A DNA stretch of 64,000 bases from assembly GCA_000004985.1 (NCBI GenBank), contig GG738854.1; one strand, 5' to 3'. Under the pieces are notes generated by a model that did not search any database, was not told where the DNA came from, and worked only from the letters and a program-made list of their open reading frames with translations. Positions 6,770-33,812 of the stretch are shown in pieces. Every line of letters starts with the position of its first letter. Within the stretch, counting starts at the first letter, position 1. The DNA is from Naegleria gruberi (Eukaryota). The position numbers and the translations under genes are program-made.

Positions 6770-6842
6770 CGCCCCACGTGGGGCTCGAACCCACGACCGT
6801 TGGATTAAAAGTCCAACGCTCTACCGACTGAGCTAGCAGGGC
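6770..6842 (-). tRNA. tRNA-Lys (anticodon UUU), 73 nt
   Basis: Reverse complement folds as a canonical cloverleaf: acceptor GCCCUGC/GUGGGGC, D-arm GCUC-AGUCGGUA-GAGC, anticodon stem UUGGA/UCCAA with loop CUUUUAA, T-arm GUGGG-UUCGAGC-CCCAC, discriminator G. One nt differs from the copy at 49297..49369 (acceptor position 5 U vs C). Upstream 5' flank AATGAGCA is shared with the second copy. Confidence 0.9.
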
Positions 6843-11987: not shown

Positions 11988-12163
11988 TTTTTTGATTTAT
12001 TTTGATATTAACAAAATCATTCTTCTAATAGAAATCATTATCTTTTTCAAAGATATGAATGATTGAAATTTTGATTGAGGAAATATTTATGAAATTTGAA
12101 TCAGTTTTATTATAAAGTTCTATGTGTACAAGCCTCGAAAAACCTCCCTGGCTTTCAAAAGAT

Positions 12164-13231
12164 TTAACCCAAAGTAAGAATACTACCATCGAGGGAGTGC
12201 TTTGGAACTTCCATGTTCAATGGAGCTGGTCCCTTAACAATTCTACCAGAAGCATCGTAGTGAGAACCGTGGCAAGGACAGAAGAAAGCATTCATAACAC
12301 CAGCATCAGTGACTGGAACACAACCCAGATGGGTACAAATGGCCAAAATAACAGTCCATTCATCATTCTTAGTTCTATCAGAGTCTGCTTGTGGATCCTT
12401 CAAAGTAGAAAGATCAGTTTCAGCAAGTGATTTGGTTTCATCTTCAGTTCTGTGCTTGATGAATACTGGTTTACCTCTCCATGTAACAGTGATGGTCTTA
12501 CCCTTTGGAACGTTGGAAATATCAACTTCAATCTTAGAGACGGCCAAAACATCAGCAGCAGCGGACCAAGAATAAAGGAATCTCAAAACAGCTAATCTGA
12601 GACCAGCAGCAACAACAAAACGACTGCTGTTGGCAACAAAGTAAGCAAATTGACGCTTATCATAATCACCTTCCTTAAGATATTCGTTAATGTTATCACC
12701 GTGATAACCAGTCTTTGGAGCGGTTTCAACGAGTCTTTGAACAGCTTCTGGGAGTTCGTTTCTCTTCAATGTTTTTTCACTTCCAATTTGAGTAGAGTAG
12801 AATCTAACTGGTTGGGCTATATATCATCAAATATATTAAATAATATCCACATAACAATAAATTATTTACAACAACAACAAAAATTGTTTTTTGATATTAA
12901 TTCCAAAATGTTCTATCATCCAAAAATTTCGCTATAAAAACTTACCAGTCAACAAAGTCTTATGACGGAATGACTTGTTTACTGAGAATGTATTAGTGAA
13001 GATTTGTTGTGGTTTGATCTCTGGAATAGCAGTAGTCTTTGATGATGATTGGAAAATGAAGGTTGGTTCTTGATGTTCAGCAGTAACACCTGGGAAAGCT
13101 TGAATATCAAAAGCGGAGAGAGTCTTGTTGATTAAAGAAGCGCTACAAGCTTTGTGTGCAGAGAAGGAAGAACCGAGGTTCTTGATTGGGAGAGTAAGAA
13201 CGGTCTTGAGTCTGTAGCTTTGGTTGAGCAT
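12164..13231 (-). CDS. mitochondrial ubiquinol-cytochrome c reductase Rieske iron-sulfur subunit. Two exons: 13231..12946 and 12816..12164, with a 129-nt intron (GTAAGT...TATAG)
   Basis: Rieske boxes CTHLGCVP and CPCHGSHYD separated by about 15 aa. C-terminus [15 protein letters not shown]. Exon 1 encodes a long presequence ([13 protein letters not shown]...). It ends at TTGACTG|GTAAGT in phase 1 and rejoins at ATATATAG|CCCAACCAG, giving ...[16 protein letters not shown]... The AT-rich intron has consensus splice sites. Confidence 0.85.
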
Positions 13232-18216: not shown

Positions 18217-19458
18217 TTATAAAATTTGTTCCAAATTAAATTTCGTATATTTGTATCTCAAATAATATTCAACAAATTCTTCCTCATTAGAACACAATTT
18301 TTGAATTTTCGAAATGTATTTCTCACGAGATTTGGCATTCATTTTGTCATCCGTTCCACTTTCTCTAAGATTCGCAAAGAGTTTCGAATATTTTTGAATG
18401 GTCAACCCAAGATTAATCAAATCAAGTCTCTGATTATGACCTTTCTTTAGTAGTTTCAAATCTTTCTTCAAAATAAATGATGTAAAAACATCCCTTTCTT
18501 TTGTATCTTTGGGTGTGAAGCTTTTGAATTGATCTGAAAGTTCTTTTGAAATTTCCTTCACCTTCTCCAAGTAATGTTTCTTTAAAAAGTGATAAATTAA
18601 ATTGTTTCGAATAAAGTTTGGAAAATAATTTGCAAAAAATCTATGAGTGGCTGAATTGATGTAATGAAAAGAATTATTTAAACGAAACTTCAATATTCGA
18701 ATATTAATTAGTAAGCAAAAGTAGGGAATAAATTGTTTTGGAGATAGTTCATAACTTTTCACAGTTGGAATGAGATACGATAAAATATGCTTCTCCAAAT
18801 ATTCAACTCCAGATATTCTGCCACCAGAATTTCTATCAATGAATTTGTAAAGAAAACATTGATTAGTTTCTTCCAATCTATTCGAAAGCTCATTTCTCAA
18901 TCCACCAGCAGAACCATAAAAAAATTCTGCATTCTTCAAATCATCACTTTCCCTAGCAACATATAGAAAATAATCACTAGCAACAGATTTACCATATCCA
19001 CTTCTTATTTTAGGAATATTCTTTCCTCTTACTATAATTGGTTCTTCAATTCCATCAATTAAAAGTTTCATTTTGTAAAATGGTACATCATTAAATGATA
19101 ATATTATCTCTGTAAAGACAATTCTTGAGAGAATGATTTTCACTAGTTGAGAGGAAAATGCATTCGGAAAAGTTTGTTTAAATTCCAATTCTAATTCTTT
19201 CGATGGTTGAGAATTCTGGGAAAGGAACATGTTGTATTTTGAATAGTGATCACTAATTGTGTGTTTCCAATATAAAGTGTCATTGTGTAAATTACTCTTC
19301 TGGAGGGAGTTGTTTGTTAATTGGTGAAAGTAGGTTTCCCATAGTGGATTGGAATTGGCAATTCGATTCCACTCTTTGCAAACTAGAGATAGATAGGAAG
19401 TGTGCGAATAATCGAGAAATGAAAAGGTATAATACAGAATATCCTCATGAAGATGCAT
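18217..19458 (-). CDS. F-box protein (413 aa), N-terminal F-box EDILYYTFSFLDYSHTSYLSLVCKEWNRIANSNPLWE; remainder has no recognised domain
   Basis: Intronless ORF with ATG at 19458. Canonical F-box spacing (LxxxxLxxIFxxL....L..VCKxW). Immediately downstream of the F-box-Rho gene on the same strand. Confidence 0.5.
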   Translation of the reverse strand: MHLHEDILYYTFSFLDYSHTSYLSLVCKEWNRIANSNPLWETYFHQLTNNSLQKSNLHNDTLYWKHTISDHYSKYNMFLSQNSQPSKELELEFKQTFPNAFSSQLVKIILSRIVFTEIILSFNDVPFYKMKLLIDGIEEPIIVRGKNIPKIRSGYGKSVASDYFLYVARESDDLKNAEFFYGSAGGLRNELSNRLEETNQCFLYKFIDRNSGGRISGVEYLEKHILSYLIPTVKSYELSPKQFIPYFCLLINIRILKFRLNNSFHYINSATHRFFANYFPNFIRNNLIYHFLKKHYLEKVKEISKELSDQFKSFTPKDTKERDVFTSFILKKDLKLLKKGHNQRLDLINLGLTIQKYSKLFANLRESGTDDKMNAKSREKYISKIQKLCSNEEEFVEYYLRYKYTKFNLEQIL

Positions 19459-19568: not shown

Positions 19569-19649
19569 GCGGTCTTGACCGAGTGGTTAAGGTGATTGAC
19601 TAGAAATCAATTGGGGCGACCCGCACAGGTTCGAATCCTGTAGACCGCG
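19569..19649 (+). tRNA. tRNA-Ser (anticodon AGA), 81 nt, with long variable arm
   Basis: Acceptor GCGGUCU/AGACCGC, D-arm ACCGAGUGGUUAAGGU, anticodon stem AUUGA/UCAAU with loop CUAGAAA, variable arm UGGGGCGACCCGCA, T-arm CAGGUUCGAAUCCUG, discriminator G. Followed by TTTTTTT (pol III terminator). Confidence 0.9.
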
Positions 19650-19983: not shown

Positions 19984-22407
19984 ATGTCATCACAAGTGAC
20001 TCTGATTTTAGATGTTGTTGACAAAAGGGATGCAACTTTTATAGCTGAATTTTATTCCAATAATTGTAGTTATCAACAATTTGTGAAAATTATTCGTGAA
20101 GAGAGTAAGAATCGTTTGAAATTAAACGAATCCTTTGTAGAATGTTACAAATCAGTCGAGTTGATCTTCCGAGGTCATTTTCTTCCTTTTGATAGTATCA
20201 AGCAAATTACACAAGTGTTTAAATATCCATTCTTGAAGAGTTATCAAAAGATGAATCAAAGAAAGGTCAAATCCTTTTTTAGTTGGAAAGACAAACCAGA
20301 ATCTATTTGGGATAGAATGGAGAAACTAGATGAAATTGTTCGAATTCTTATTAATAATGAAACTGATTACAAATCTATGTATTATATTAATAATTTATTT
20401 AGAGATTATGAAAATCAACCGAGCTTGTTGTTTGTTATTGGATCTCATCCGAAAATGGATTGGGGGCATTTGGTTTCTGCTCTTGCAAAATCTCCCGAGT
20501 TGACCAAACACTTGTTTAACTTTAAATATTATTCATTAAATGCACTACCAGAGAAATTATTCCAAATAAGACATGTAGTTTCAGAATTAGTCAAGAAGGA
20601 CATTTTAGCATTACAATTAGCTACTAATTTTAGAAATGATAGAGAGATTGTTCTTGATGCTTGTAAACACAATCCATTGGCTTTACAATTTGCTAGCTCA
20701 GACTTGAGAAATGATAAGGAATTTGTAATGAAAGTGTTGGGAAGAAGATTTAACACACTGCACTATGTGGGAGAGTCTTTATTATCCGATTCACAAGTAT
20801 TGAGAAGAGGAATGATGTCTGAAAAAGAGTGGAGACATGAAAGATTTGATTCTATGAATACTTTTGAATTGATGGAAGAGATTTTGAAGAATAGACCACT
20901 AATGGTTCTCAAATTTTATCATTTATTGGAGGAGAGGGGTCTTGAATTTAGAATTGACTCAATTTGCAACAATTTCAAAATAATTATTGAAAAGTCTCCG
21001 TTCCAAATTCAAGAAAGCATTCTTTTGAGGAATCAAGTCAATCTTTTTAATTCAATTGAAAATCCAAATGTAGCTCTGAAATTTATTTCCATTGGATATT
21101 GTGAAAGATATCGTGCTTGTAAAGATCATTTGCTCCAGTTAACAAAATCGAAATATCCTCATTTGGAAAATCTTTCAATGGAAACAGAGGAAGAAAAGTA
21201 CATTTTAAAAAACCATTCAAATGGTCTCATTACATGTAAAGAAGAATTGAGAAATGATAAGAACTTTGTACTGAGATATTTTCAATTACACACTAATAGA
21301 AAGAGGATGATTTCCATTATTGGTGTTGGGGAGGCTTTGTTAAATGACCAAGAAATATTGAAAGAATATCTTGTCACTAACGGTATTCCTGTAGATGATG
21401 AGAATAATCTATCATCAGAACTCTTGATGAAACAAATTATTTCAGTCTACCCATTGTCCATTGTAAGATTTTACAAATTTTTACAAAATGAAATAGAGTT
21501 CAATATCACCTCTTTTAATTTCCAAGAACTTTGCAGAACAGCACCACTTATTACCGATCTACAATTTGCTTCACTATTAATATGTAAGAATTATTCTTTT
21601 TATTATAAGCTATCAGATGAACTGAGGAAAGAGACATCTTTTGTTAAGATACTGCTTTTTAAAAATGGGGTGAATATTCATTTTAAAAAACTTCCTTCTA
21701 CTTGTTACTCAGATAGAGAAATAATGACCCATATATTGACAACACCTTCATATCACTATAAGAATGAAAGTGAGTCAATTTGTTGTGCAGTTTGTAAAGC
21801 ATTCCCATTTGATATTGACCTTATGAAACAAGCAGTCAAATGGCATGGACATACACCACTTCCTTACATGCATCACGACCTGTTACTAAATAATAGGGAT
21901 TTCTGTTATTGGTTAATGGACAGTTGTGGCCATCCACAATCATACTTTAAGTATCTTCCAGAAAAAATCAGAACAGATAGGGATTTTATATTTGAATTGC
22001 TTGATGATTTGTATTGGAAAATTGGATATGTGAAAAATATTACAATGGACTTTGTGATGAAATGCATAAGGAAAAACAAAATTTGCTACAAGTATTTTGG
22101 ACAGATATTTAGAGAAAATAGACAAGTAATTGATCTGGCAATGGAAATGGGTGTTCCAATCAAGGAAATTACAGTATGTCAAGCATTTAGTGAGCATTTG
22201 TGGGATAGTTCACCAGATAATTTTGTTGATAATTTGTGCCATCCAGGTTATCAAGTGTTTCTCAATAAGGATCTACTGAGGAGAGCTATTGAAAGAAATT
22301 CTAAAGGTTTTGACAATATTGAAAAATGGAAGAATTATCCTGGATGTGAGTGTTTATCCGAGCAAGATTGGACAGATTTGAAAAAGTTAGCAAGTGCCAT
22401 GGAATAG
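19984..22407 (+). CDS. DUF4116-like repeat protein (807 aa)
   Basis: Single ORF. Repeated modules of the form DREIVLDACKHNPLALQFASSDLRNDKEFVMKVL, LRNDKNFVLRYF, TDRDFIFELL, ENRQVIDLAMEMG. These match the DUF4116 periodicity (D-x-E-hh-L-x-A-h-x-x-N-x-x-A-L-x-h-A-S-x-x-L-x-N-D-K-E-F-V). Confidence 0.5.
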   Translation: MSSQVTLILDVVDKRDATFIAEFYSNNCSYQQFVKIIREESKNRLKLNESFVECYKSVELIFRGHFLPFDSIKQITQVFKYPFLKSYQKMNQRKVKSFFSWKDKPESIWDRMEKLDEIVRILINNETDYKSMYYINNLFRDYENQPSLLFVIGSHPKMDWGHLVSALAKSPELTKHLFNFKYYSLNALPEKLFQIRHVVSELVKKDILALQLATNFRNDREIVLDACKHNPLALQFASSDLRNDKEFVMKVLGRRFNTLHYVGESLLSDSQVLRRGMMSEKEWRHERFDSMNTFELMEEILKNRPLMVLKFYHLLEERGLEFRIDSICNNFKIIIEKSPFQIQESILLRNQVNLFNSIENPNVALKFISIGYCERYRACKDHLLQLTKSKYPHLENLSMETEEEKYILKNHSNGLITCKEELRNDKNFVLRYFQLHTNRKRMISIIGVGEALLNDQEILKEYLVTNGIPVDDENNLSSELLMKQIISVYPLSIVRFYKFLQNEIEFNITSFNFQELCRTAPLITDLQFASLLICKNYSFYYKLSDELRKETSFVKILLFKNGVNIHFKKLPSTCYSDREIMTHILTTPSYHYKNESESICCAVCKAFPFDIDLMKQAVKWHGHTPLPYMHHDLLLNNRDFCYWLMDSCGHPQSYFKYLPEKIRTDRDFIFELLDDLYWKIGYVKNITMDFVMKCIRKNKICYKYFGQIFRENRQVIDLAMEMGVPIKEITVCQAFSEHLWDSSPDNFVDNLCHPGYQVFLNKDLLRRAIERNSKGFDNIEKWKNYPGCECLSEQDWTDLKKLASAME

Positions 22408-22463: not shown

Positions 22464-25400
22464 TTAGAGCTCAATACTGTTGTATCCTTTCATCTCCTCA
22501 AAGTTGAAAATCTTTTCTTTTGGAAGTGATTGTTTCTTTCTAATTAACAAGACAATAACCACGATAATGAGAACTATTACACATAATGTTAAAAAGGCAA
22601 CACATAATCCAAGACCGATTACAGTGGTTTGTTCAGAATGTGATGGTTGGGGTTTGATTGGATCTGAAGATTTTGCAACAATTACCAGATTGTACTCTTC
22701 GTGCAAAATAGTTTCAGCACAATGCAATGTGTAGAGTGAATCAGTATTGGTTATTGCACTACTTCCATAAAATATTCTTTCAGATGTGACATAAACGCAC
22801 TGAAGAGAATTTAAATCAGATATTTTGTTTCCGTATTCGTCACGTAATTTGTTTACGTCGAAAGTGAACATTCTGTCTGTGGAAATATCTGATTTAACAA
22901 TTTGCATAATTGAGAAACTCTTCACCTTAACAAAACCATCCAACCACTTGTCATCATCATCTTGGTATTTCAACATGAACCTAACACCATTATTCAATTG
23001 AGGGAATGATTTGGAGGAGAAGGAGAATTCAAAATAGGTTGATGGAGACAGTTCATACTTTAAGGATCTTTCATAATGTATAGAATAGACTTTACCAATT
23101 TCTCCAATTGGGTTGTTGTAAGCAAATACGGCGAATTTGAGTTTTTGATTGATGGATATATTGATGGATAGTTTCCACGGATCTTTTGACTGTGTGTCAT
23201 CACATTCTAACCAATTGAATTCTTGTTTCTCGTCATCAACAGAAAAAAATCGGTATGAAAATGGATCCAAGTTTCTGTTGATAGAGTTCTTTTCATAGAC
23301 TAAATCTAGCTCAGTATCAATGCTTATACTACTGTATACATTGACTTTACTGGTATCCAAGACGTAAACACCAACCAAAGATAGTGGTTGAAGCTTAGTG
23401 TTTGGAAGTGAATAATCGGAATATTTCCTATTATCAACCATTAGCATATAATTTCCTGTTGATCTGCAGTTTGGATTGAAAGAAATAGTCAATGCATCCA
23501 TAGGTAATACTTGGCTATAGAATGTATCAATATCAGTTGGTATAACAGCATTAATAGAGTTGAGATCCTTAATGTATACATTGCCAACAAATGGCTTGCC
23601 CAATAGAATGAAAGCAAATGTCTCATCTCTGATATCCTCCTGAAGGTCGATCAGTACAAGTTTTTCCTGTGCATCTGAGATTATAATTGGTTGAGATCCA
23701 CTCTCTTCAAACTTTTCAAAGTTTGATTCTTTGAATAAATACCCTCCTTTAATATCTGTAAACCTTATCTTCATAAATTTAAATATGGAAGTTTCAAAAT
23801 CAATGAGGAATTTTCTTCCCTCATCGAATCCATACGTCTCCAATCCATTTCCGTTTTGTTGTAAAAAGCTGTACAATACTGTATAATCATCCGTTCCCTT
23901 CATGTTTGTTGGATTAAAGTTGTTAATTGTAAAGTAAGGTCTGGATTCATAAAGAATTGGCGTGTAATATCTTTGTTTAAAGTAAACTGTAAGATTAATA
24001 TGGCTTCCCAAAGCATAAGAAACTTCTCTCGGATAATTAGCAAAAACAACTTCCCCAATCTCTGCCTTTGATTGTGCATAACTGAACAATCCAAAAGTTC
24101 TCTTTTTATAAACTTTTGAATTGAGTATTGGATCCAAATTGAGGCTGAAACTTGTTTGGGAGAGTCTTGGAATATCATCAGAAATCATTTCAAATAAATT
24201 TCCTTCTGAATTTAGTATGAACAATCTCAGTGAGTATGGATCGACTCCCATCTGTTGGGATGATTCAATATGTACAATGATAGCATTTTGTGAATCATAA
24301 GTTTTCTTCACATTAGTATTGATTTGAACTTGTGTAAAGTCTATATCAAAAACATTTGTGAGTGTGAGACCTGATTGTGAACTTGGGCTATGATTAACGT
24401 CTTTAAATTCCCCAATACTATTATCTATAAATGTATAACTTCCAGTTAGTTGACTATCTGGTTTAAATGAAACTTGAATTTTAGGATTGGATGAAAATTC
24501 CCTGAGTGTTTGAGGGTCAATAGAGCAAGCTGATCTAAAAGAACAAACTTGAATGGAAGGGATTTTTCCAATAACAGCCATGACATATTTTGAATCCTTC
24601 ATTATCTGGTTGCAAGTCAGTATGTATGTGGAAATTGTTCCTAGTGAATTTGAAGACGTAGGATCAATTGTTAGTTGTTTAAAATCAGAATCAGCAGTTG
24701 CGTAAGCGCATTTCAACGAGAAATGATCTACTTTCTTATTACCATATATTATTTCCAATCTGTGATGAATAGATCTAATTTCATCCAACTGGAAAATTCC
24801 CTTATTATCTTCTTCAATTGTGTATGCACCAAGAAGAACATACGAATCTGGAACAGTAACATTACTATCATAACTCGAAACAGTAACTGTAGGTGTTATG
24901 GTTTGGGATGGATCTTGTACGGATGCATTTGGATACAAGATGTGCATTTCAAATTGTTGGAGGTTGTAGAATAAATCTCTTGGGTATTTGAGAGAGACAC
25001 TCTTTGAAAGTTTCTCCTCTGTTGAGGAATAGGCAAAGAATAGCATGAGCTTGGAAATGGAAGTAGCTCCCTTAAACTCATTCAAAGAAACATTAAATTC
25101 CCATGGTCCTTGTGTTGAATTAATGCTATCTGAAGTTGGAAACATTGGAGTAAAATCGAACAGAACTGGAGTCTTGCCAGGTTCAATGGTATATGCTCTT
25201 ACTGAATAAGGGTCAATGTTAATCTTGAATGTTGGAAAAAACTTGATCGTCAGTGTTTGTTTCTTATCAGATAGTGCTGCACTTTCATTCCTTTTCAACT
25301 CCCAAAATAAGGAATATTGACAAGTCAATTGATTTTGAGTAACAATAGCAGGGACATTAATCATCTTGGGATTGGTAAGGAAAGAAAACTTTTGATTTCC

Positions 25401-25670
25401 ACTCCAGTCAAAGTCATCATGATAATGAACCTCAAAATAACCTCTAAAATGTCCCAATTCAAAGAAGTACGTCGGAATTACCTGTGTATCTACATCATGA
25501 ATACTATCCAAGTTATAAAACATGACTTGTTTTTCAAAGCTTTCCCTCACCATCACCAACACCATTATCAATACCAACACTAAACACCACCTACGGCTAT
25601 CAAACAAGTGTGCATGCGTGCGTTCAATCTTTTGCATCTTTATCAAAACGAGAGAGAGGGAATGAAACAA
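22464..25670 (-). CDS. large type I transmembrane glycoprotein (1068 aa): signal/anchor near N-terminus, long N-glycosylation-rich ectodomain, single C-terminal TM (VIGLGLCVAFLTLCVIVLIIVVIVLLI) and short cytoplasmic tail
   Basis: Single long ORF on the minus strand. Many NxS/T sites. The hydrophobic segment is followed by RKKQ stop-transfer residues. No recognisable catalytic motif. Confidence 0.45.
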   Translation of the reverse strand: MFHSLSLVLIKMQKIERTHAHLFDSRRWCLVLVLIMVLVMVRESFEKQVMFYNLDSIHDVDTQVIPTYFFELGHFRGYFEVHYHDDFDWSGNQKFSFLTNPKMINVPAIVTQNQLTCQYSLFWELKRNESAALSDKKQTLTIKFFPTFKINIDPYSVRAYTIEPGKTPVLFDFTPMFPTSDSINSTQGPWEFNVSLNEFKGATSISKLMLFFAYSSTEEKLSKSVSLKYPRDLFYNLQQFEMHILYPNASVQDPSQTITPTVTVSSYDSNVTVPDSYVLLGAYTIEEDNKGIFQLDEIRSIHHRLEIIYGNKKVDHFSLKCAYATADSDFKQLTIDPTSSNSLGTISTYILTCNQIMKDSKYVMAVIGKIPSIQVCSFRSACSIDPQTLREFSSNPKIQVSFKPDSQLTGSYTFIDNSIGEFKDVNHSPSSQSGLTLTNVFDIDFTQVQINTNVKKTYDSQNAIIVHIESSQQMGVDPYSLRLFILNSEGNLFEMISDDIPRLSQTSFSLNLDPILNSKVYKKRTFGLFSYAQSKAEIGEVVFANYPREVSYALGSHINLTVYFKQRYYTPILYESRPYFTINNFNPTNMKGTDDYTVLYSFLQQNGNGLETYGFDEGRKFLIDFETSIFKFMKIRFTDIKGGYLFKESNFEKFEESGSQPIIISDAQEKLVLIDLQEDIRDETFAFILLGKPFVGNVYIKDLNSINAVIPTDIDTFYSQVLPMDALTISFNPNCRSTGNYMLMVDNRKYSDYSLPNTKLQPLSLVGVYVLDTSKVNVYSSISIDTELDLVYEKNSINRNLDPFSYRFFSVDDEKQEFNWLECDDTQSKDPWKLSINISINQKLKFAVFAYNNPIGEIGKVYSIHYERSLKYELSPSTYFEFSFSSKSFPQLNNGVRFMLKYQDDDDKWLDGFVKVKSFSIMQIVKSDISTDRMFTFDVNKLRDEYGNKISDLNSLQCVYVTSERIFYGSSAITNTDSLYTLHCAETILHEEYNLVIVAKSSDPIKPQPSHSEQTTVIGLGLCVAFLTLCVIVLIIVVIVLLIRKKQSLPKEKIFNFEEMKGYNSIEL

Positions 25671-26094
25671 TGACGAGTCGTTGTATTTTTTTTAAGGCTA
25701 GAAAATTTTTATAATGTGGAGATTTTAGCGCGCTGTAAAAAAGATTTAAGGGTTCATTTTGAACCAGTAAATGGTTTACAATGAGTAGTTGATACCAAGT
25801 AGGGATGACTAGAAAGTATTTGTTAAAATATTCTCTCAATGGAAGTTTGCAGAGCTATTAATCTAAAATACTTCTTGTTTCTAATAACTGTTCAGCAAGT
25901 TTTGAAAAGGAAGGCCTTTGATAGAAATCTTCACACCACGAACATTGTACCATGGAAAACAATGAATCAAGAATTGTTAAATACTTTTCAAAAGGATCTT
26001 CCTGACTAATTCCTCAAGGAATGTAAAGCTCTCTGTTGTAAAAAAGGTAGTTTTGATTGTTAATGTAGAACTAGGCTGGTTGAGTAATTCTTTT

Positions 26095-27929
26095 TCAATA
26101 AGTAATACCATTCAATTCTGTTGCAGACTTTCTTTGGAACTGAAATATTTGATTTGTATCTGACAATTCAACATGTACATCAAATTCAGTCAACGATACT
26201 ATTTTCTTAACTGGCTCTTTTGCATTTTCAAATAAACCAATAATAACATTAAATGGCTTTCCAAATTCAGTTTCAAACAGTCGTGAACCAGATAATGCTA
26301 CAGAAACAAGCTCTGGAAATGTGTCATGATCTGATAAAACATCATTACCACAAAAGTTGTTCGAAAAAGATAGTTGATTATTGATTTTTGTTCCTATTGA
26401 AAACACCACCACCAAGAAATGAAGCATAACTATCTTCTATTTGTGTTTTTGATTCAATGCTAAGCTCTGTCTTGAATGTGAAAACTGCGCCACCATATTT
26501 AAGAGCCTTATTAAAAAAGAAATAGGAGCTGGAAAAATAGACCTTCGATGAATACCAGGAATCTACTGCAGCGTAAGCACCTCCATAGACAGCCGTATTG
26601 TTTTCAAAAAACTTGGAAGTTATTAGAAGGATAAAAATTTTTTTCAATACTCACGCTGTTTTGTGATAAAAATCTATGGGCATATCGAGACAGAATTGCT
26701 CCACCTATTAAGGCCGAATTTTTCAGAAATAAACAGTCATTAATTTCAAGTAAGGATTCACGTTGTAAAATTGAGCCACCACCTTCCTCATCTACTTTTT
26801 CAGCAATTGTTGTGAATATTTGCTGATTGTTTATAAACGATGTCTTAAAAATAACTAAATTGTAAATGTTTCGAATAGTGATAGCTGATCCTCCCTTAGT
26901 GTTTGAGTTTCCTTCAAAATTTGAATAGGTAATAACTGCATTTATACCAACGCCTTCCATAAAAAGAGATCCAACAGAGTTACAATCAAGAAACTTTGAT
27001 TCAACAATAATTACAGTAAGAACTGAAAGAGATGATAAATATAGGGAGTGAAATTCATCTTTGGGGACTTTGTTGGAATATCGATAAACATACGCTTTTG
27101 GAATTAAGTGTTGGAATATTTCCAATAAACAGACTGTTCAAAACTATAACTCTCTTTGCTTCTTCAATGTGTATTGTTGAGTTCATAAAACTTGAACCAG
27201 CTATTTCAAACGAAGGAACTGTCCGATCGGTCACTGTTAAATAGGCAATGGCATACTCATATAACCTGCCTTAAATCTCGAATTTCTTATTACAATATAA
27301 AACTGTTTCACAAGATTAAAATGTATCTTTGAACCAAGGTTTAGAATTGTGTTTTCACTAGTTGAAGAGTCAATTGTTTTAAGAAGGTCTAATTTTGATT
27401 GAGTTCCCACAGTTACATTGTCAAGCGTAAGTTTACCACTTATTTCATTAACAAATAATTCTTCAATAACACAATTCTGAATTTCAATTTGACCATCAAA
27501 ATACAGGTTCAACCGTAAATTCAAATTTGAAAATTTAAGAGGAACAAGATCATAATATTTAACAAAGCCTACACAAGATTTTCTTGTTGTCAAGGAAGTA
27601 ATGTGCAGGCTCATAATATTCCAATTATTATTAATAAAACCAACACACATCACATCGTCATCCATAATATTAAATTGTACTGCCAGATTAGATGTATTAG
27701 TACTATTCATCTTCATTAATAAATCAAGTGCATATTTAATTGTATTGCATGGTTTTTTAGCTGATGAACATTTTTCATTATCCAAGCCCTTTCCACTTAA
27801 ATATATTTCCCTTATTTCTTCCTGTAATGCTAAGGAGGAGGAAATTAATAGAATTATAGAAAGGATCATCACCACAATCATCCTTACCATCGAATGGTGA
27901 TGTATTGTGCTGTAGCATGAATTCCTCAT
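26095..27929 (-). CDS. Pmp-like (GGA[ILV] / FxxN repeat) predicted beta-helix secreted protein. Gene is split over four ORFs: two putative introns (about 27256..27134, 123 nt; 26654..26612, 43 nt GTGAGT...AAG) and one frameshift near 26395..26410. Possibly a pseudogene
   Basis: The N-terminal ORF (27929..27237) has a signal peptide MVRMIVVMILSIILLISSSLA. Downstream ORFs carry repeated GGA[ILV] and FxxN modules characteristic of polymorphic-membrane-protein-type beta-helices: GGSAITI, GGGSILQ, FLKNSALIGGAILS, YGGAYAAV, FFFNKALKYGGAVFTF, GGGVFN, FSNNFCGNDVL. The ORF3-to-ORF4 frame change falls in GGTGGTGGTGTTTTCAATAGGAACAAAAATC with no GT..AG solution. Confidence 0.45.
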
Positions 27930-28273
27930 CTCACAATTTTTTAAGTAAGTTTGAGGAGCAATAAGTGAAGATCAACAATTCTCCGATTATAAAGCTCCCC
28001 TTTATGTTCTCTCCCTTTTCAACTCTGAGTTATGTTTTGCAAGATATTACAAATAAATTGCAGAATATCAAGCTTAACAAATGGAACATAGCAAAGGGAT
28101 TCTTCCTTAGTATATCAGATGTACTTCTCTTAATATGGGAGTGCAGATTTAGGTTTAGTTTTAGCTAAACTCTTTTCATCATTCTTTTGAGTTTCATTAT
28201 TATTTACATTGGTTGAATTATTTAGTATATGAAGCCAGCTTGCTGTTGATTAATAGAATTCGGAGAGTAAAAA

Positions 28274-30583
28274 ATGTTTTCACGAGATTGCCCACAAAAT
28301 AAGCAACATAATTCCTCCGAAGAAATTCTTCTTCAACAAGCACAAGATGATGATGAAGATTTAATGATTAACTTTTGTGATTTTGAATTCAATTTAAATT
28401 TACAAAGTCAAATTCAAGACTTGGCACAGATTCGTGAATTTGCAAAAACAATTTCATATTATAAACATCATGATAATAATCGGAATAGTTATGATTTATG
28501 TAATGACGACTGGTTTATGATATTGGATTTTATTCCATTCTTTGAATTTAGCAAATTTGCATTAGTTTGTTCATCATTTGCAGAATTATTGACTTTTAAT
28601 AGAAGATATTTGGTAATGAGAAGAATTTTGAAGGGTTTTCCAATATTGCTGAAGGATCATCACTATTTACCTGTTGAATCATTGGAAATATTGGCAAATA
28701 ATGAAGCACCATCTGATGATCCATCATTTGCCAAGTCAATTTACTCGGACATGATTAATTTTCTATTCGAAAAGAGGAGATACAAAAAGAATATGTGGAA
28801 AAACATTCCTAGTACAAAGATTTTGGAAATGGATCAACAAGTATTCATTTTACCATTTAGAGATTCAATGATTAGAAAAGTATTTAGTGATTTTATTGAT
28901 ATTCCACAAGTTTTGTTGGATGATAGGGATTTTATTTTGAAGTTTTTCAAATCTTTTCCCAAAGCTCCAAGATATTTCACATTCCTCAATTCAAAATTGA
29001 TGCAAGATGAAGAGATTGCCAAGATGGCAGTGCAATCCAATGGATGGTTTATTAGATTTGTTCAAGATCCAACAAGTGAAATTCTTAATACTGCATTCTG
29101 TTCCAGAAAAAGATATATCATTTCATCAACTTCTCACCATACTTTTGAAAGATACAAAGAAAGCTTGATTGAATTTGTGAGAGAGCCATTTTATCATTTG
29201 TTGGAACAGAAATCAATTGTTAATGATTATAGAATGTCTAGAAAGGAATTATTCTTTAAAAGAAATATGATTTTCGATTCCAAATGTGGAAGTAAGAATG
29301 CAGAGTTCTTGTTGCTCTTTTCATTCTTTGAAAAATCACCTGAATTCAAGGGAGTTCTATTATATTTCTACAATGCTAAAACTTCCACTGAAAAATATGA
29401 TCACATTGATGATTTGATTACTGACCTGTTATGTGTTCCAGAGAAATTTCAACCAATTCTATCAAAACCTATGTTAGTTCCTGAAGAATTGAAATGCAAG
29501 ACAAGAGAAATTACCATGTCAACAATGTTGAAAAATATATTGGATGACAATTTCACTTTTGACAATGTAATGACTCATGACAAAAAGAAGCTTACTACAT
29601 CAAGTATTGAATATCTAAGGGAAAGATTGATCCAAAAAATGAAACCGACACCACTCTTTACAGGAATGTATTTCGGTAAGAAAGTTGAAAATATTGATTG
29701 TGAAAACGAAAGTGAAAAAATCAAATTATTGAATGAAATATCAAAATGTAGGGGATTGAATATGAAAATGTTGAAATATTACCCAAAACATTACGTACTT
29801 TTAGATGAGGAAATCAAACAGGACGAAGAGTTTAAAAGAATTGCAATGAGATGTTTAAAATTCAATGCTCAATACTTTGACTTTTCCAAAGATGATATGC
29901 TTGTATTATTACTCTCAGCTAATGTGAAGGTATCTGTTGAATATTTGAAAAAACAGTCAAACTGGAGCTCAACTTTGGAAAGAATCAATAATATTTTCAC
30001 AACAAATGGAAGAATTCGCTCAAATTGGTTAACTTGGCCACAAGTTTATTGCTTGTACAGGTTTTTACTCTGCTACTCATTCAACAGAGATAAATTATTC
30101 ACATTAGAAGATCAAGTGAAAATGATTGATTACATCCCACCTAAACACAAGAAACTCCTTTTGGAATATAGTTATGAGGAGTGCTTGATGGAAAAAATCA
30201 GATTGAAAAACCTAGTCCAGTTTGATTTCTATGATTCAAGAGTATTTCTCTTTGGATTCAGATATATGATTAGTTATAAATCAATTAATGCCATATGTAG
30301 AGTAGTTGATGGTTCATTGATAAAATTCCAACAATCAGATAGACTCCTCTCAGAAATTTTGAAAGTGACACCCAAATTTATTAAGGTATTCATGGAAAAA
30401 AGACCTAAAATTTATAGGAAAGTAATTCTCCCTCCCTATCCAGTTGAATTGGTGATAAAGCTTGCATTGGAAAATCCAAGAATTATTCACTATCTTCCAA
30501 GAAATATTCAAAGTCACCCCTTACTACTTTGTGGGTTGATGGGGATTTATAGAGGTCAACATAATTCGACCACTGGAATGTGA
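28274..30583 (+). CDS. F-box-like / DUF4116-like repeat protein (769 aa), paralogous in repeat content to 19984..22407
   Basis: N-terminal DDWFMILDFIPFFEFSKFALVCSSFAELL (F-box-like). Repeats DEEIAKMAVQSNGWFIRFVQDP, LLDDRDFILKFF, QDEEFKRIAMRCLKFNAQYFDF. Single ORF with ATG at 28274. Confidence 0.5.
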   Translation: MFSRDCPQNKQHNSSEEILLQQAQDDDEDLMINFCDFEFNLNLQSQIQDLAQIREFAKTISYYKHHDNNRNSYDLCNDDWFMILDFIPFFEFSKFALVCSSFAELLTFNRRYLVMRRILKGFPILLKDHHYLPVESLEILANNEAPSDDPSFAKSIYSDMINFLFEKRRYKKNMWKNIPSTKILEMDQQVFILPFRDSMIRKVFSDFIDIPQVLLDDRDFILKFFKSFPKAPRYFTFLNSKLMQDEEIAKMAVQSNGWFIRFVQDPTSEILNTAFCSRKRYIISSTSHHTFERYKESLIEFVREPFYHLLEQKSIVNDYRMSRKELFFKRNMIFDSKCGSKNAEFLLLFSFFEKSPEFKGVLLYFYNAKTSTEKYDHIDDLITDLLCVPEKFQPILSKPMLVPEELKCKTREITMSTMLKNILDDNFTFDNVMTHDKKKLTTSSIEYLRERLIQKMKPTPLFTGMYFGKKVENIDCENESEKIKLLNEISKCRGLNMKMLKYYPKHYVLLDEEIKQDEEFKRIAMRCLKFNAQYFDFSKDDMLVLLLSANVKVSVEYLKKQSNWSSTLERINNIFTTNGRIRSNWLTWPQVYCLYRFLLCYSFNRDKLFTLEDQVKMIDYIPPKHKKLLLEYSYEECLMEKIRLKNLVQFDFYDSRVFLFGFRYMISYKSINAICRVVDGSLIKFQQSDRLLSEILKVTPKFIKVFMEKRPKIYRKVILPPYPVELVIKLALENPRIIHYLPRNIQSHPLLLCGLMGIYRGQHNSTTGM

Positions 30584-30788: not shown

Positions 30789-31784
30789 ATGTCTCAACAA
30801 CAAACATTGCTTTTAACTGGATCAACTGGTACTATTGGTAAATTGCTCATTCAACAATTGCATTCCACCAAGCAAGAAGCACACTTGAAACTCAAACTTC
30901 TTGTCAGAAATGTTGAAAAAGCTAAGGAATTATTCGATGCATTGCAATCTGATTCGTTCCAATTAGAATATATTCAAGGTGATTTGCCAATCAATGACAA
31001 ATCAGTTAATACTGAGTTGTTATTTGATAAGGTTGAAAAGATTTTCATTTTGGCACCTGATGTTCCTCAAAAGGTAAACCTTGAAAAGTCAATTGTCGAG
31101 AAGGCATTACAATACACCAAAGCATCAAATGGTCAATTGAAACAAGTTGTTAAATTGAGTGCATTAGGTGTTAGTAGAGATAGAGAAACCAACAATTTGC
31201 TTCGTTGGCATGCAGATTCCGAATACGAAATTTTCCAAGCATTGAATCATTACAATGAGGTCAATTCTGACAATACTGTTTCGCATGTATTTATTAGACC
31301 TGGAATGTTTATGCAAAATATCTTGGGTGGTTACGAGCACTATTATTTGATGAATCATAATATGATTGTAAGACCTGATTTGAATACTAGACACTCTTAT
31401 ACTACCTCCTTTGTTGATGTTAGAGATTTAGTTAAGATTATTTCATTAGTTTTATTGGAAACTGATGTCACTAAATATGGTGATAAAACATTTACTATCA
31501 CTGGACCATCAACAACCACCAATCAAGAATTTGTTGAAATTGTCAGTAAGGTATTGAAAAGAGATATCCATTATGAGAAAGTTTCTGAATTTACTTTTAT
31601 GAATATGTTGAAAGAAATGCAAATTCCAAATGACTATATTTGGATGTTGATAAAATTATATCAAACTGGTAAAGAGAATGGAGCCGCAAGTATTATTTAT
31701 GAAGATTTTGAAAATATTACTGGAACTTCGCCAACAACTTTTGAACAATTTTTATTGGATCATTTGAGCTATTTTAATCAATAA
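30789..31784 (+). CDS. NmrA-like family NAD(P)-binding Rossmann-fold protein (atypical SDR), 331 aa
   Basis: N-terminal GxxGxxG motif LLLTGSTGTIGKLLIQQL. Overall NmrA/HSCARG-like length and block order (…VKLSALGV…, …FIRPGMFMQN…, …TFTITGP…). Intronless. Confidence 0.6.
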   Translation: MSQQQTLLLTGSTGTIGKLLIQQLHSTKQEAHLKLKLLVRNVEKAKELFDALQSDSFQLEYIQGDLPINDKSVNTELLFDKVEKIFILAPDVPQKVNLEKSIVEKALQYTKASNGQLKQVVKLSALGVSRDRETNNLLRWHADSEYEIFQALNHYNEVNSDNTVSHVFIRPGMFMQNILGGYEHYYLMNHNMIVRPDLNTRHSYTTSFVDVRDLVKIISLVLLETDVTKYGDKTFTITGPSTTTNQEFVEIVSKVLKRDIHYEKVSEFTFMNMLKEMQIPNDYIWMLIKLYQTGKENGAASIIYEDFENITGTSPTTFEQFLLDHLSYFNQ

Positions 31785-32072: not shown

Positions 32073-33812
32073 ATGGCAAGAGTAAATGATTATTATTCGA
32101 TGGATTGTTCTCCAGAATTTGAAATTAGCAATCATTTGAATTCTTCCTCACAGAAATGTACAACTTTCCACTCATCAACTAATCAAATTCTACCAGATGA
32201 AATTATTCAATATCAAATAATACCATTTCTTGATGTGGAAACTTTGTGTTGTAAATTTAGTTTACTTTCTTCACATTTATATAAATTGGCTGAAGACAAT
32301 TTGTTGTGGAGAGAAAGATTTTTCAATACTCTGCCAAGTTCTCAATTAGAATTCTTTCAGAACAATCCACTTTATTGGAAACAGTGCTATAATTCAAAAT
32401 CAACAAGAAACTACTTTCTCTCACTTTCTCCAACACTTCACGAAAGAATTTATCCTTCTCTTGATGCTTTCAGTGTCAATTTCAAAGATTTGTACAGAAC
32501 AACATTTGTTGAGGGCCGTTTAGAAGGAAATCGACTGCTCAACTCTGGTAATTATAAGAGAGATCAATTCTCACACCACATTACTTATTATTATCTGATT
32601 GACATTGCTCAGAATTTGAAATTGACAAATGAAGAACTTCGATTGGTTGACAAGGTTTTCGATCAATCAGTTTCTCCAACCATTGAATTTTTCAGAGGAA
32701 GAACAAGAGAGAAGGGTGCTCTAAATGATGATGAAACTCGTGAATATTATGGAGTATTTGGTATTGTAATTGGCATCTATTTTGTAATGTATCAGGAATG
32801 GATGTCCAATGATTTGAGAGCTCATGTCATTGGTAGAAAATTAACACATCGAGTGAAGGAAGTTTCCAGACATGGAGATGAAATACAGAGAGAGGGTGCG
32901 AGTGTTGAATTGAGAACTCATGATTCTGCATTCGATTACAAATACTTTTACAATGAAAAGTTGACATCCACTCCAAAAAATAATGATGATTTTGAACTCT
33001 CGAAATTTGTAAATGGTGATGAGAGTTCTTATCCACAATACTTGTATTTGAATCAATCCACAGAAGATAAATGGGATCAGAGAAGTAAGAGTCAACCAGT
33101 GAGCCTTACTATTCATGGAGTTTGGAGTGATAATAAGGAAAGATGTGGTTTGTTCACAAGTGAAAATATTGATTGGTCAACCAGTGTTTTCGATTTGGCA
33201 ACCCTAGGCAGTAAATTACATGATGTCAATTATAGAAGAGTGTACAGTGTTGATAATGAAGTTAAAATATTCTCCAAGTTGACTGCATTCAAGTATTGGA
33301 AGATGACAACACATATCAAAATAGACGCCACTCTCTCCAATTTCCAATCGACAGAATATAATGTCTCATTTGATTGTGATGCGTATGTGAGAGGAGAGGC
33401 AGCTGTTGCTATTCACCATAGTCAAAGTGGACCTTCATCCTATTCACATCAACATCATACTCATTATCAAATTGTTGGTAATGCAGTGGACAGTTACTTT
33501 TCATTCAATTTACTCAATCGAGGAGAACACATGTTCTTGGCATGGTGTATGTTTGATGATATGAAGAATGAATCCAAATTGAAGAGCGAACAAGCAATCA
33601 GAACTAAAGTTATTACTCCAAAAGAAGCTCCAATCACACCTGAAAAGGTATTGAGTGAGGAGAGAAGAAAGATGGTCCTATCATCAGACAAGTGTGGAAT
33701 GTTTCCAACCATGGACCAATTCAAACTTTCAGGAATATTGGTAGATCGTGATGGAGTGAAGGGATATGTTGAGCTAGAGCCAAGAATTCACCTCAAACAA
33801 CAACAGCAATAA
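32073..33812 (+). CDS. F-box protein (579 aa) with N-terminal F-box LPDEIIQYQIIPFLDVETLCCKFSLLSSHLYKLAEDNLLWRERFF
   Basis: Single ORF. Classic F-box consensus at residues about 40-85. C-terminal region has no recognised motif. Confidence 0.55.
   Translation: MARVNDYYSMDCSPEFEISNHLNSSSQKCTTFHSSTNQILPDEIIQYQIIPFLDVETLCCKFSLLSSHLYKLAEDNLLWRERFFNTLPSSQLEFFQNNPLYWKQCYNSKSTRNYFLSLSPTLHERIYPSLDAFSVNFKDLYRTTFVEGRLEGNRLLNSGNYKRDQFSHHITYYYLIDIAQNLKLTNEELRLVDKVFDQSVSPTIEFFRGRTREKGALNDDETREYYGVFGIVIGIYFVMYQEWMSNDLRAHVIGRKLTHRVKEVSRHGDEIQREGASVELRTHDSAFDYKYFYNEKLTSTPKNNDDFELSKFVNGDESSYPQYLYLNQSTEDKWDQRSKSQPVSLTIHGVWSDNKERCGLFTSENIDWSTSVFDLATLGSKLHDVNYRRVYSVDNEVKIFSKLTAFKYWKMTTHIKIDATLSNFQSTEYNVSFDCDAYVRGEAAVAIHHSQSGPSSYSHQHHTHYQIVGNAVDSYFSFNLLNRGEHMFLAWCMFDDMKNESKLKSEQAIRTKVITPKEAPITPEKVLSEERRKMVLSSDKCGMFPTMDQFKLSGILVDRDGVKGYVELEPRIHLKQQQQ

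What the first reader, a model, noticed from the sequence alone, without database searches (positions are those of the whole stretch)
26095..27929. Pmp-like GGA[ILV]/FxxN beta-helix gene, split over four ORFs and carrying a frameshift
Four co-linear minus-strand ORFs together encode a signal peptide followed by repeated GGA[ILV] and FxxN modules. These modules are the hallmark of chlamydial polymorphic-membrane-protein-type parallel beta-helices, a bacterial adhesin architecture that appears only sporadically in protists. Two of the three junctions can be bridged by GT..AG introns of plausible size (123 and 43 nt). The third has no splice solution and needs a 1-nt indel in an A5 run near 26400. 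The gene is therefore either a young pseudogene or the sequence has a homopolymer error there.
Basis: partly seen in the sequence, partly recalled or inferred. Interest (0 to 1): 0.55.

Follow-up and report, generated by a model that had tools for sequence, protein, structure and literature searches.

The report
Decayed receptor-kinase pseudogene in Naegleria
This stretch is the unannotated, broken remnant of a Naegleria gruberi gene for a cell-surface receptor kinase with a Pmp-like beta-helix outer domain; the remnant is ordinary, but it points to a receptor family that none of my literature searches found described.

Summary
The window is Naegleria gruberi NEG-M nuclear DNA.

The locus is not a gene one indel away from intact. 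It is a pseudogene, 27929..25858 on the minus strand, of a type I receptor kinase.
- Its closest intact paralogue in the same genome is NAEGRDRAFT_80536 (1081 aa model): signal peptide, Pmp-like beta-helix ectodomain, stalk, TM helix, TKL-type kinase.
- Seven co-linear pieces in alternating frames match that paralogue at 33-62% identity.
- The 43-nt intron (26654..26612, GTGAGT...AG) is real. It has the same position and length as in the paralogue.
- The proposed 123-nt intron is wrong. It covers a fifth coding piece in another frame (E=6e-8).
- The last 50 kinase codons survive, with the stop codon (62% identity, E=2e-14).
- There are no in-frame stops in 665 homologous codons, so the decay is recent.

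Pfam Chlam_PMP is below threshold on the relic itself (16.5 vs 20.6 bits). Pmp-repeat homology is nevertheless clear through relatives. Interest in the locus is low. The Pmp-ectodomain kinase family in Heterolobosea and Amoebozoa, which I found in no paper, is the modestly interesting by-product.

The parts
27240..27929 (-). Piece A (frame 0). Holds the start codon, a signal-peptide-like N-terminus, an N-terminal domain with no Pfam match, and the first beta-helix rungs. It ends in TAA at 27239-27237, followed by an in-frame TGA at 27233-27231.
   Evidence: ORF. tblastn to paralogue P0189 residues 35-224 at 27824-27255, 39% identity. No Pfam hit.
27229..27254 (-). Lesion J1: a -1 frame change together with loss of one 30-aa beta-helix rung that both intact paralogues keep.
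   Evidence: Three-way alignment and frame map. The only GT..AG that could bridge it is 32 nt (27265..27234), with a poor GTTATA donor and no CTAAY branch motif. That reading comes from direct inspection of the sequence.
27070..27228 (-). Piece B (frame 2).
   Evidence: BLASTP to P0001 residues 260-299: 43% identity, E=6e-8. tblastn HSP 27228-27109.
27055..27075 (-). Lesion J2: a +1 frame change in or next to the CCCC/AAAG run (AGTCCCCAAAGATGA).
   Evidence: Frames. Homology switches from frame 2 (SIFQQS) to frame 0 (KDEFHSLYLSS).
26655..27062 (-). Piece C (frame 0). Pmp-like rungs carrying FEGN..GGSA, FINN..GGGS and FLKN..GGAI.
   Evidence: tblastn 27062-26652, 54% identity to the L002 reconstruction of the paralogue. 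Weak Chlam_PMP hit.
26612..26654 (-). Genuine 43-nt spliceosomal intron: GTGAGT ... TTCTAAT ... CCAAG.
   Evidence: Same position and same 43-nt length as intron 1 of the paralogue (L002 2775-2817). After splicing, QNS|FFENNTAVYGGAY matches SSN|MFENNTAVYGGAY.
26399..26611 (-). Piece D (frame 1). Rungs with FENN..GGAY, FFFN..GGAV and ..GGGV.
   Evidence: tblastn 26620-26399, 55% identity.
26393..26402 (-). Lesion J4: a +1 frame change in AACAAAAATC (A5 run).
   Evidence: Removing one A gives GGGVFNRNKINNQLSFSNNFCGN, which aligns with the paralogue.
26098..26397 (-). Piece E (frame 2). Membrane-proximal stalk region; it lacks a 13-aa segment present in both paralogues.
   Evidence: tblastn 26406-26098, 33% identity. 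Three-way alignment.
26022..26096 (-). Piece E' (frame 0), reached through a further +1 frame change (lesion J5, at TAT T GAA). It reads EKELLNQPSSTLTIKTTFFTTESFT, the last stalk residues before the big deletion.
   Evidence: Aligns with the paralogue's EKELSDRNSTLTFTIKTTLFTKESYS. Frames.
26011..26021 (-). Lesion J6: junction of a deletion of about 400 codons plus their introns. It removed the end of the stalk, the TM helix, the juxtamembrane segment and kinase subdomains I-X (about P0189 residues 629-1031).
   Evidence: P0189 residues 601-1031 have no tblastn match anywhere in the window; the first ~27 of them (about 602-628) align with piece E' only in the alignments. The flanking matches lie only about 10 nt apart.
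25858..26010 (-). Relic of the last 50 codons of the kinase (subdomain XI and C-terminal tail) plus the original TAA stop (25860-25858).
   Evidence: tblastn P0189 1032-1081 vs 26010-25861: 62% identity, E=1.9e-14, ending at the same final residue. The 10 best PDB matches are all kinases, matched near their C-terminal ends. P0010 C-terminus matches at E=1e-4.

Best explanation
Window 27929..25858 (minus strand) is a unitary, unannotated pseudogene in Naegleria gruberi NEG-M. It is a diverged duplicate (about 46% amino-acid identity) of the receptor-kinase gene NAEGRDRAFT_80536.

The parent type is a type I membrane protein. From N- to C-terminus it has a signal peptide, an N-terminal domain with no Pfam match, a right-handed parallel beta-helix with about 6-7 degenerate Pmp-type (FxxN...GGA[ILV]) rungs, a stalk, one TM helix, and a cytoplasmic TKL-type Ser/Thr kinase (HRDLKPGN, DFG).

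The inferred working of intact members is that the beta-helix binds an extracellular ligand and signals through the kinase. A glycan or prey-surface ligand is the most likely kind, by analogy with other beta-helix adhesins and lectins.

The window copy can no longer do this. It carries four frameshifts, two small in-frame deletions, and one large deletion that took out the TM helix and the catalytic core. At most it could yield a 230-aa secreted N-terminal fragment.

Shown: homology, gene structure, lesions, and the absence of the TM helix and kinase. Inferred: ligand type, signalling mode, lack of function, and the recency of inactivation.
For: Organism: three window ORFs are exact matches to N. 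gruberi RefSeq proteins.

Paralogue:
- P0001 belongs to the same 90% cluster as XP_002674732 / NAEGRDRAFT_80536.
- The protein reconstructed from contig L002 is 99.1% identical to NAEGRDRAFT_80536.
- It carries Pkinase at 173-176 bits. Its best solved relative is the Raf-like kinase CTR1.

Co-linear matches: six tblastn HSPs to the paralogue lie in frames -3, -2, -3, -1, -2, -2 at 33-62% identity.

Intron: position and length (43 nt) are both conserved.

Lesions:
- The 30-aa and 13-aa segments missing here are present in both intact N. gruberi paralogues, so they are derived deletions.
- The kinase tail is retained at E=1.9e-14 and ends at the same stop, while paralogue residues 601-1031 have no tblastn match anywhere in the window; of these, only about 602-628 align with piece E'.

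Timing and rate:
- There are 0 stops in 665 homologous in-frame codons, against an off-frame stop density of 0.092. This indicates recent inactivation.
- The relic lineage shows a modest excess of unique changes, 79 vs 55, p=0.04.

Annotation: no protein identical to the relic turned up in a search of a collection that does hold N. gruberi proteins, so it is unannotated there.

Quality of flanks: the neighbouring 769-aa ORF exactly matches a RefSeq protein, and the 1068-aa ORF on the other side is uninterrupted. The local sequence is therefore not generally poor.

Beta-helix and Pmp link:
- The AlphaFold model of the paralogue's first 453 aa has high confidence (block means mostly 80-98) over residues 320-440. 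Nearly all listed PDB matches are right-handed beta-helix proteins.
- P0001 alone hits strong Chlam_PMP proteins at E=1e-8 to 1e-5 in 1.8 billion sequences.
- A family profile retrieves 308 proteins, and nearly all of the 120 listed carry PF02415.
Against: - No transcript or read data were available, so the indels have not been independently verified and expression is unknown.
- Two of the four frameshifts sit in short homopolymers (C4, A5), where sequencing errors are most plausible.
- Having no nonsense substitutions alongside four frameshifts is somewhat unusual for a pseudogene.
- The strain may carry another, intact allele that is not represented in the assembly.
- Pfam Chlam_PMP is below threshold on the relic (16.5 bits). 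It is not detected at E<=0.01 in the models of the two intact N. gruberi paralogues, so the Pmp label rests on transitive homology.
Confidence: 0.9

Rival explanations
1. This is an essentially intact Pmp-like secreted or adhesin gene of four exons, with introns of 123 and 43 nt. It is disabled by a single 1-nt indel at the A5 run, which is either a very young mutation or a homopolymer sequencing error.
For: The 43-nt intron and the A5 frameshift are real. A frame-preserving 123-nt GT..AG exists at 27256..27134.
Against: - The '123-nt intron' contains homologous coding sequence in another frame (E=6e-8).
- The peptide its splicing would create has no match.
- Thirteen GT..AG solutions exist by chance.
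- Further frameshifts occur near 27070 and 26097, and there are three deletions.
- The parent gene continues into a TM helix and a kinase, of which only the last 50 codons remain.
Confidence: 0.04
2. The frameshifts are assembly or sequencing errors. The real locus encodes a functional protein, for example a secreted beta-helix protein without a kinase.
For: Two shifts lie in C4 and A5 runs. There are no in-frame nonsense codons in 665 codons.
Against: - Lesions J1 and J5 are not in homopolymers and come with multi-codon gaps.
- The deletion of about 400 codons fuses the stalk to the kinase tail in a different frame.
- The flanking ORFs are intact: one matches RefSeq exactly and the other is an uninterrupted 1068-aa ORF.
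- From my own knowledge, not from a tool: the N. gruberi assembly is Sanger-based, which makes clustered indel errors unlikely.
Confidence: 0.04
3. Programmed +1 ribosomal frameshifting at stop codons, Euplotes-like, reads through three of the junctions (AGA TGA A, CAA TAA T, TAT TGA A).
For: All three +1 junctions can formally be solved by skipping the T of the stop codon.
Against: - That property holds for any pair of overlapping +1 ORFs.
- There is no shared slippery motif.
- J1 is a -1 shift followed by two stops.
- Both intact paralogues have none of these shifts.
- The TM helix and kinase are missing regardless.
Confidence: 0.01
4. The ORFs are independent small genes or chance ORFs in AT-rich DNA.
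For: None beyond their existence.
Against: The homology to one paralogue is co-linear in the paralogue's own order, with a combined E of 1.5e-90.
Confidence: 0.01

Closest known systems
Naegleria gruberi NAEGRDRAFT_80536 (XP_002674732, 'uncharacterized protein FM172'), with the second paralogue NAEGRDRAFT_48784
   Same: - Same N-terminal domain, same Pmp-like rungs and same stalk.
- Same 43-nt intron position.
- Same C-terminal kinase tail and stop codon.
- Identity is 33-62% per piece, and 45.6% over 537 ungapped columns of the three-way alignment.
   Different: - The window copy has four frameshifts.
- It lacks a 30-aa rung and a 13-aa stalk segment.
- It lacks the TM helix and kinase subdomains I-X.
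- It is unannotated.
Heterolobosean and amoebozoan Pmp-ectodomain receptor kinases: Willaertia magna ABK040_003088 and ABK040_005398, N. fowleri FDP41_004621, N. lovaniensis C9374_006686, and Protostelium nocturnum and Cochliopodium minus transcripts
   Same: The parent gene has the same architecture of beta-helix ectodomain, TM helix and kinase. Most of these proteins pass the Pfam thresholds for both Chlam_PMP and Pkinase; the Cochliopodium transcript P0016 shows the kinase only in Pfam at E<=0.01.
   Different: Identity is only 20-30%. These proteins have more and more canonical FxxN/GGAI rungs. All are 'hypothetical', and I found no paper describing the architecture.
Chlamydial polymorphic membrane proteins (Pmp; type V autotransporters)
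   Same: Repeated FxxN...GGA[ILV] rungs that form a right-handed parallel beta-helix exposed on the cell surface (PMC11166332, PMC10715098).
   Different: The family here has no Pmp middle domain and no C-terminal autotransporter beta-barrel. Anchoring is by a eukaryotic signal peptide plus a single TM helix, and the cytoplasmic part is a kinase. The relic is below Pfam's threshold.
Trichomonad Pmp-like surface proteins (e.g. the 48 T. vaginalis members; PMC6701047)
   Same: Eukaryotic proteins with N-terminal Pmp repeats and a C-terminal TM helix in place of the autotransporter domain.
   Different: The trichomonad proteins have a short cytoplasmic tail with endocytic motifs rather than a kinase domain. 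No specific sequence relationship was tested.
Protist and plant transmembrane / receptor-like kinases (Entamoeba TMKs, plant RLKs of the TKL group)
   Same: Single-pass receptor with a TKL-type Ser/Thr kinase. The best solved relative of the paralogue's kinase is Arabidopsis CTR1.
   Different: The ectodomain is a Pmp-type beta-helix rather than CXXC-rich, LRR or lectin modules. The cross-kingdom TMK survey (PMC10463195) mentions neither Naegleria nor such ectodomains.

Membership tests
Chlamydial Pmp / Pfam Chlam_PMP repeat (PF02415) | Several FxxN + GGA[ILV] repeats that score above Pfam's gathering threshold of 20.6 bits | tested here: not met
   The concatenated relic scores 16.5 bits, E=0.01, and single pieces give E=0.4 and 0.0084. 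Strict GGA[ILV] occurs twice, the relaxed form six times. Relatives do pass: W. magna 58.7 bits, N. lovaniensis 26, N. fowleri 24.3.
Chlamydial Pmp / Pfam Chlam_PMP repeat (PF02415) | Sequence homology of the repeat region to bona fide Pmp-repeat proteins | tested here: met
   The paralogue fragment P0001 alone hits proteins carrying 70-122 bits of Chlam_PMP at E=9e-9 to 1e-5. The family profile retrieves 308 proteins, and nearly all of the 120 listed have PF02415. Piece C of the relic is 52-54% identical to that region.
Chlamydial Pmp autotransporters | C-terminal autotransporter beta-barrel and Pmp middle domain | tested here: not met
   There is no such Pfam hit in the relic, its paralogues or the heterolobosean relatives. 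Those have a TM helix plus a kinase instead.
Right-handed parallel beta-helix (pectate-lyase-like fold) | Three-stranded rungs stacked into a right-handed helix | tested here: met
   Tested on the paralogue, not on the relic. The AlphaFold model of P0001 has mean pLDDT 69.9, with block means mostly 80-98 over residues 320-440 and strand triplets. Nearly all listed Foldseek PDB matches are beta-helix proteins (GH110, AlgG, polygalacturonases, tailspikes, PfbA), but the scores are weak, with a best E of 4e-4 and TM 0.2-0.4.
Receptor-like (transmembrane) protein kinase | Signal peptide, ectodomain, one TM helix, and a complete kinase domain with catalytic HRD and DFG motifs | tested here: not met
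   The paralogue meets it: Pkinase 173 bits, HRDLKPGN, CDFG, and the TM segment LIIPFIFIAFFIISCLACIVITFGCV. The relic keeps only the last 50 kinase residues and has no TM helix.
Pseudogene (non-processed, duplicated) | Clear homology to a functional gene, retention of intron structure, and disabling lesions | tested here: met
   Co-linear HSPs in alternating frames. The 43-nt intron is retained. There are four frameshifts and three deletions relative to two intact paralogues.
Pseudogene (non-processed, duplicated) | No functional transcript or protein | not testable with these tools
   No RNA-seq, EST or proteome data were accessible.

The most novel reading that the evidence does not exclude
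The relic is a signpost to a receptor class I could not find described: single-pass TKL kinases whose ectodomain is a bacterial-type Pmp-repeat beta-helix. They occur in Heterolobosea (Naegleria gruberi, N. fowleri, N. lovaniensis, Willaertia) and in Amoebozoa (Protostelium; a related Cochliopodium kinase shows no Pfam Chlam_PMP hit). Plausibly they arose by fusing a horizontally acquired adhesin module to a eukaryotic kinase and are used by bacterivorous amoebae to sense prey or surfaces. The window copy would then document ongoing birth-and-death turnover in that family. A weaker variant is that the intact 230-aa first ORF is still secreted as a soluble fragment.
Probability: 0.5. Interest if true: 0.45.

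Novelty: new member of a known kind. Interest (0 to 1): 0.27.

Why it matters
The locus has little biological weight by itself. It is one more dead gene copy in an amoeba genome, useful mainly as an annotation correction.

Three things give it secondary value:
- It shows that frame-preserving GT..AG pairs in AT-rich DNA are cheap, so they are weak evidence for introns. Thirteen such solutions exist at one junction here.
- It exposes probable mis-spliced RefSeq models of the two intact paralogues.
- It draws attention to a receptor-kinase architecture (Pmp-type beta-helix ectodomain, TM helix, TKL kinase) shared by free-living and pathogenic Naegleria, Willaertia and some Amoebozoa. No searchable paper describes it. 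It could matter for how these amoebae recognise bacteria or host surfaces.

Tried and rejected
Leads that went nowhere:
- Pfam on the single ORFs and on the concatenated translation gave only sub-threshold Chlam_PMP.
- Pfam on the 51-aa kinase tail alone gave nothing. The tail was settled only once the full-length paralogue was found.
- A scan of JGI metagenome contigs for closer relatives of the relic found nothing.
- Looking up the encoding contig of the neighbouring RefSeq protein, to see the called genes, found nothing on record.
- The flanks are not syntenic. The gene upstream of the paralogue in L002 and the one upstream of the relic are unrelated.
- There are no repeats at the deletion junctions and no Rfam family in 24000-30000.
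- Literature searches for Naegleria plus Pmp, for Chlam_PMP/PF02415, for the locus tags, for a Naegleria kinome and for transmembrane-kinase surveys found no description of this family. The N. gruberi genome paper is not held.

Ideas I rejected:
- My first guess from composition was a trichomonad. A Twinkle-like helicase argued against it, and exact protein matches then identified N. gruberi.
- A 32-nt intron (27265..27234) could bridge J1. I rejected it because the donor is poor (GTTATA), there is no CTAAY branch motif, and it is shorter than the 43-47-nt introns of the paralogue. The bridged stretch (GYMSMPL) also aligns with coding sequence of the paralogue.
- A ciliate-type genetic code is excluded, because all three stop codons are used and the long ORFs read in the standard code.
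Full report
**Organism and context.** The window is about 32% G+C and is packed with long intron-poor ORFs read in the standard code. Three of its ORFs are exact matches to Naegleria gruberi RefSeq proteins on a 665-kb scaffold. They are XP_002680241 at 28274-30583, XP_002680242 at 30789-31784 and XP_002680248 at 53802-56531. Neighbouring genes include F-box/DUF4116 proteins, a Twinkle-like primase-helicase, an EGF-rich 7TM-RGS protein and a GBP.

**The observation.**
- The four minus-strand ORFs are at the stated coordinates.
It also shows homologous coding sequence continuing past the stated end.
- The motifs exceed chance. Six GG[AGS]x occur at 26-37-residue spacing, and the FxxN-then-GG pattern matches five times at four distinct sites; 0 of 5000 shuffles reach either count.
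- Strict GGA[ILV] occurs only twice.
- Pfam Chlam_PMP reaches 16.5 bits (E=0.01) on the concatenated translation, below the 20.6-bit cut-off.

**What it is related to.**
- A search with the conceptual translation found P0001 (41% identity) on the 4.5-kb metagenome contig L002. Downstream ORFs on that contig carry a TM segment and a protein-kinase domain.
- Removing three tiny introns from L002 (43, 47 and 44 nt, each GTRAGT...CTRAY...AG) gives one protein. In order it has a signal peptide, an N-terminal domain, Pmp-like rungs, a stalk, a TM helix and a kinase with GxGxxG, HRDLKPGN and DFG.
- P0001's 90% cluster contains N. gruberi XP_002674732 (NAEGRDRAFT_80536, 1081 aa). The L002 protein is 99.1% identical to it. 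L002 is therefore N. gruberi-like DNA, and the relic's closest relative is a paralogue in the same genome.
- A second paralogue, NAEGRDRAFT_48784, was found by the exhaustive search.
- More distant relatives with the same architecture occur in Willaertia magna, N. fowleri and N. lovaniensis, and in the amoebozoans Protostelium nocturnum and Cochliopodium minus. Most pass the Pfam thresholds for both Chlam_PMP and Pkinase; the Cochliopodium protein shows only the kinase at E<=0.01.

**Anatomy of the window copy.** tblastn of the paralogue gives co-linear matches:

| Window coordinates | Frame | Identity | Paralogue residues (P0189) |
|---|---|---|---|
| 27824-27255 | -3 | 39% | 35-224 |
| 27228-27109 | -2 | 43% | 259-298 |
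| 27062-26652 | -3 | 54% (vs the L002 reconstruction) | 310-428 |
| 26620-26399 | -1 | 55% (vs the L002 reconstruction) | 416-487 |
| 26406-26098 | -2 | 33% | 486-600 |
| 26010-25861 | -2 | 62% | 1032-1081 |

- The last match has E=1.9e-14 and ends at the same final residue, immediately before a stop codon.
- A short seventh piece (26096-26022, EKELLNQPSSTLTIKTTFFTTESFT) aligns with the end of the stalk in yet another frame.
- Only one junction is an intron. It is 26654..26612, 43 nt, GTGAGT...TTCTAAT...AG, with the same position and length as intron 1 of the paralogue.

**The lesions.**
- A -1 shift with loss of a 30-aa rung near 27240, followed by TAA and TGA stops.
- A +1 shift at a CCCC run near 27070.
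- A +1 shift at 26097.
- A 13-aa deletion in the stalk.
- A deletion of about 400 codons plus introns that removed the TM helix, the juxtamembrane segment and kinase subdomains I-X.

The 30-aa and 13-aa segments are present in both intact paralogues, so they are derived losses in this copy.

The 123-nt candidate (27256..27134) is one of 13 frame-preserving GT..AG solutions at that junction. It removes a segment that matches the paralogue at E=6e-8 in another frame. It also creates a peptide with no match. I reject it.

**Age.**
- The 665 homologous in-frame codons contain no stop codon, while the off-frames of the same DNA have one stop per 11 codons. The intron signals are also intact.
- With the second paralogue as outgroup, the relic lineage has 79 unique changes against 55 in the first paralogue, p=0.04.
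- Together these suggest the copy was a functional, diverged paralogue for most of its history and was inactivated fairly recently.

**Pseudogene versus sequencing error.**
- Two shifts lie in short homopolymers, but the other two do not.
- The deletions are multi-codon.
- The kinase is gone.
- The flanking ORFs are intact: one is an exact RefSeq match and the other is an uninterrupted 1068-aa ORF.
- No protein model for the locus appeared in a search of a collection that holds N. gruberi proteins.
- I put the pseudogene reading at about 0.9.

**Pmp-likeness.**
- The relic itself fails Pfam's threshold.
- The models of the two N. gruberi paralogues show no Chlam_PMP hit at E<=0.01.
- P0001 alone hits strong Chlam_PMP proteins at E=1e-8 to 1e-5 among 1.8 billion sequences.
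- A family profile retrieves 308 proteins, and nearly all of the 120 listed carry PF02415.
- An alignment of the retrieved proteins has the canonical consensus FxxNxAxxGGAI.
- An AlphaFold model of P0001 is confident over residues 320-440. Nearly all of its listed PDB matches are right-handed beta-helix proteins, although the scores are weak.
- The repeat type is therefore Pmp-like. The family is not a Pmp autotransporter, because it has no middle domain and no beta-barrel, and it carries a TM helix and a kinase instead.

**Mechanism.**
- Intact members are most likely ligand-binding surface receptors that signal through a TKL-type Ser/Thr kinase. The best solved relative of the kinase is CTR1.
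- A glycan or prey-surface ligand is an inference from the beta-helix fold and has not been tested.
- The window copy cannot signal. At most its first ORF (230 aa, with a signal peptide) could be secreted.

**Literature.** Eukaryotic Pmp-like proteins are described for trichomonads, where the repeats are followed by a TM helix and a short endocytic tail rather than a kinase (PMC6701047). I found no paper that links Naegleria or amoebae with Pmp-ectodomain kinases.

**Verdict.** The object is an ordinary, unannotated, fairly young pseudogene, so interest is low (0.27). The receptor family it belongs to is a modestly interesting side result.

Noticed in passing
L002:2775-2817, and window 26745-26655 (minus strand): The RefSeq/JGI model of the intact paralogue NAEGRDRAFT_80536 lacks 30 aa (VVRCYFFNNSALIGGAIFSQYAKQFQSSSN, one GGAI rung). 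These residues are encoded if the 43-nt GTGAGT intron is used, and they are conserved in the window relic. The model is therefore probably mis-spliced.
   Followed up: partly
P0151 / P0150 (not in the window): The model of the second N. gruberi paralogue, NAEGRDRAFT_48784, has an unrelated ~280-aa N-terminus and stops at the start of the kinase (…GVVYLAL). It also lacks a segment around the first intron. A metagenome version (P0150) shows the true signal peptide.
   Followed up: partly
Relatives P0010, P0011, P0155, P0192, P0012, P0117, P0016: Receptor kinases related to the paralogue, most with Chlam_PMP or Beta_helix plus TM plus Pkinase, occur in Willaertia, three Naegleria species, Protostelium and Cochliopodium; the Cochliopodium protein shows only the kinase in Pfam at E<=0.01. 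The juxtamembrane motif KKxKxLxKKEKAE is shared among the heterolobosean members. No publication was found.
   Followed up: partly
window 22464-25670 (-): A 1068-aa ORF lies immediately downstream on the same strand. It has a C-terminal TM helix and a short tail, and no significant Pfam domain. It is an uncharacterised surface protein.
   Followed up: no
window 36720-42008 (+): A 1762-aa ORF combines many teneurin-like EGF repeats with weak, sub-threshold Pfam hits to a multi-pass membrane region (MFS_1) and a C-terminal RGS domain.
   Followed up: no
window 9243-11987 (-): A 914-aa Toprim + DnaB-like (Twinkle-type) primase-helicase ORF. Its exact sequence is not in the protein collection, so the annotated model, if one exists, differs from the plain ORF.
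   Followed up: no
window 18217-19458 (-), 19984-22407 (+), 28274-30583 (+), 32073-33812 (+): A local concentration of F-box and/or DUF4116 proteins surrounds the relic.
   Followed up: no
window 6770-6842 (-), 19569-19649 (+), 49297-49369 (+): Three tRNA genes: Lys-UUU twice and Ser-AGA once.
   Followed up: no
L001 (4-Mb ENA contig), gene at 10001-12820: P0002 is a 939-aa protein made almost entirely of canonical Pmp-type rungs. It sits on a 4-Mb contig in a sparsely called region, and its organism was not identified.
   Followed up: no
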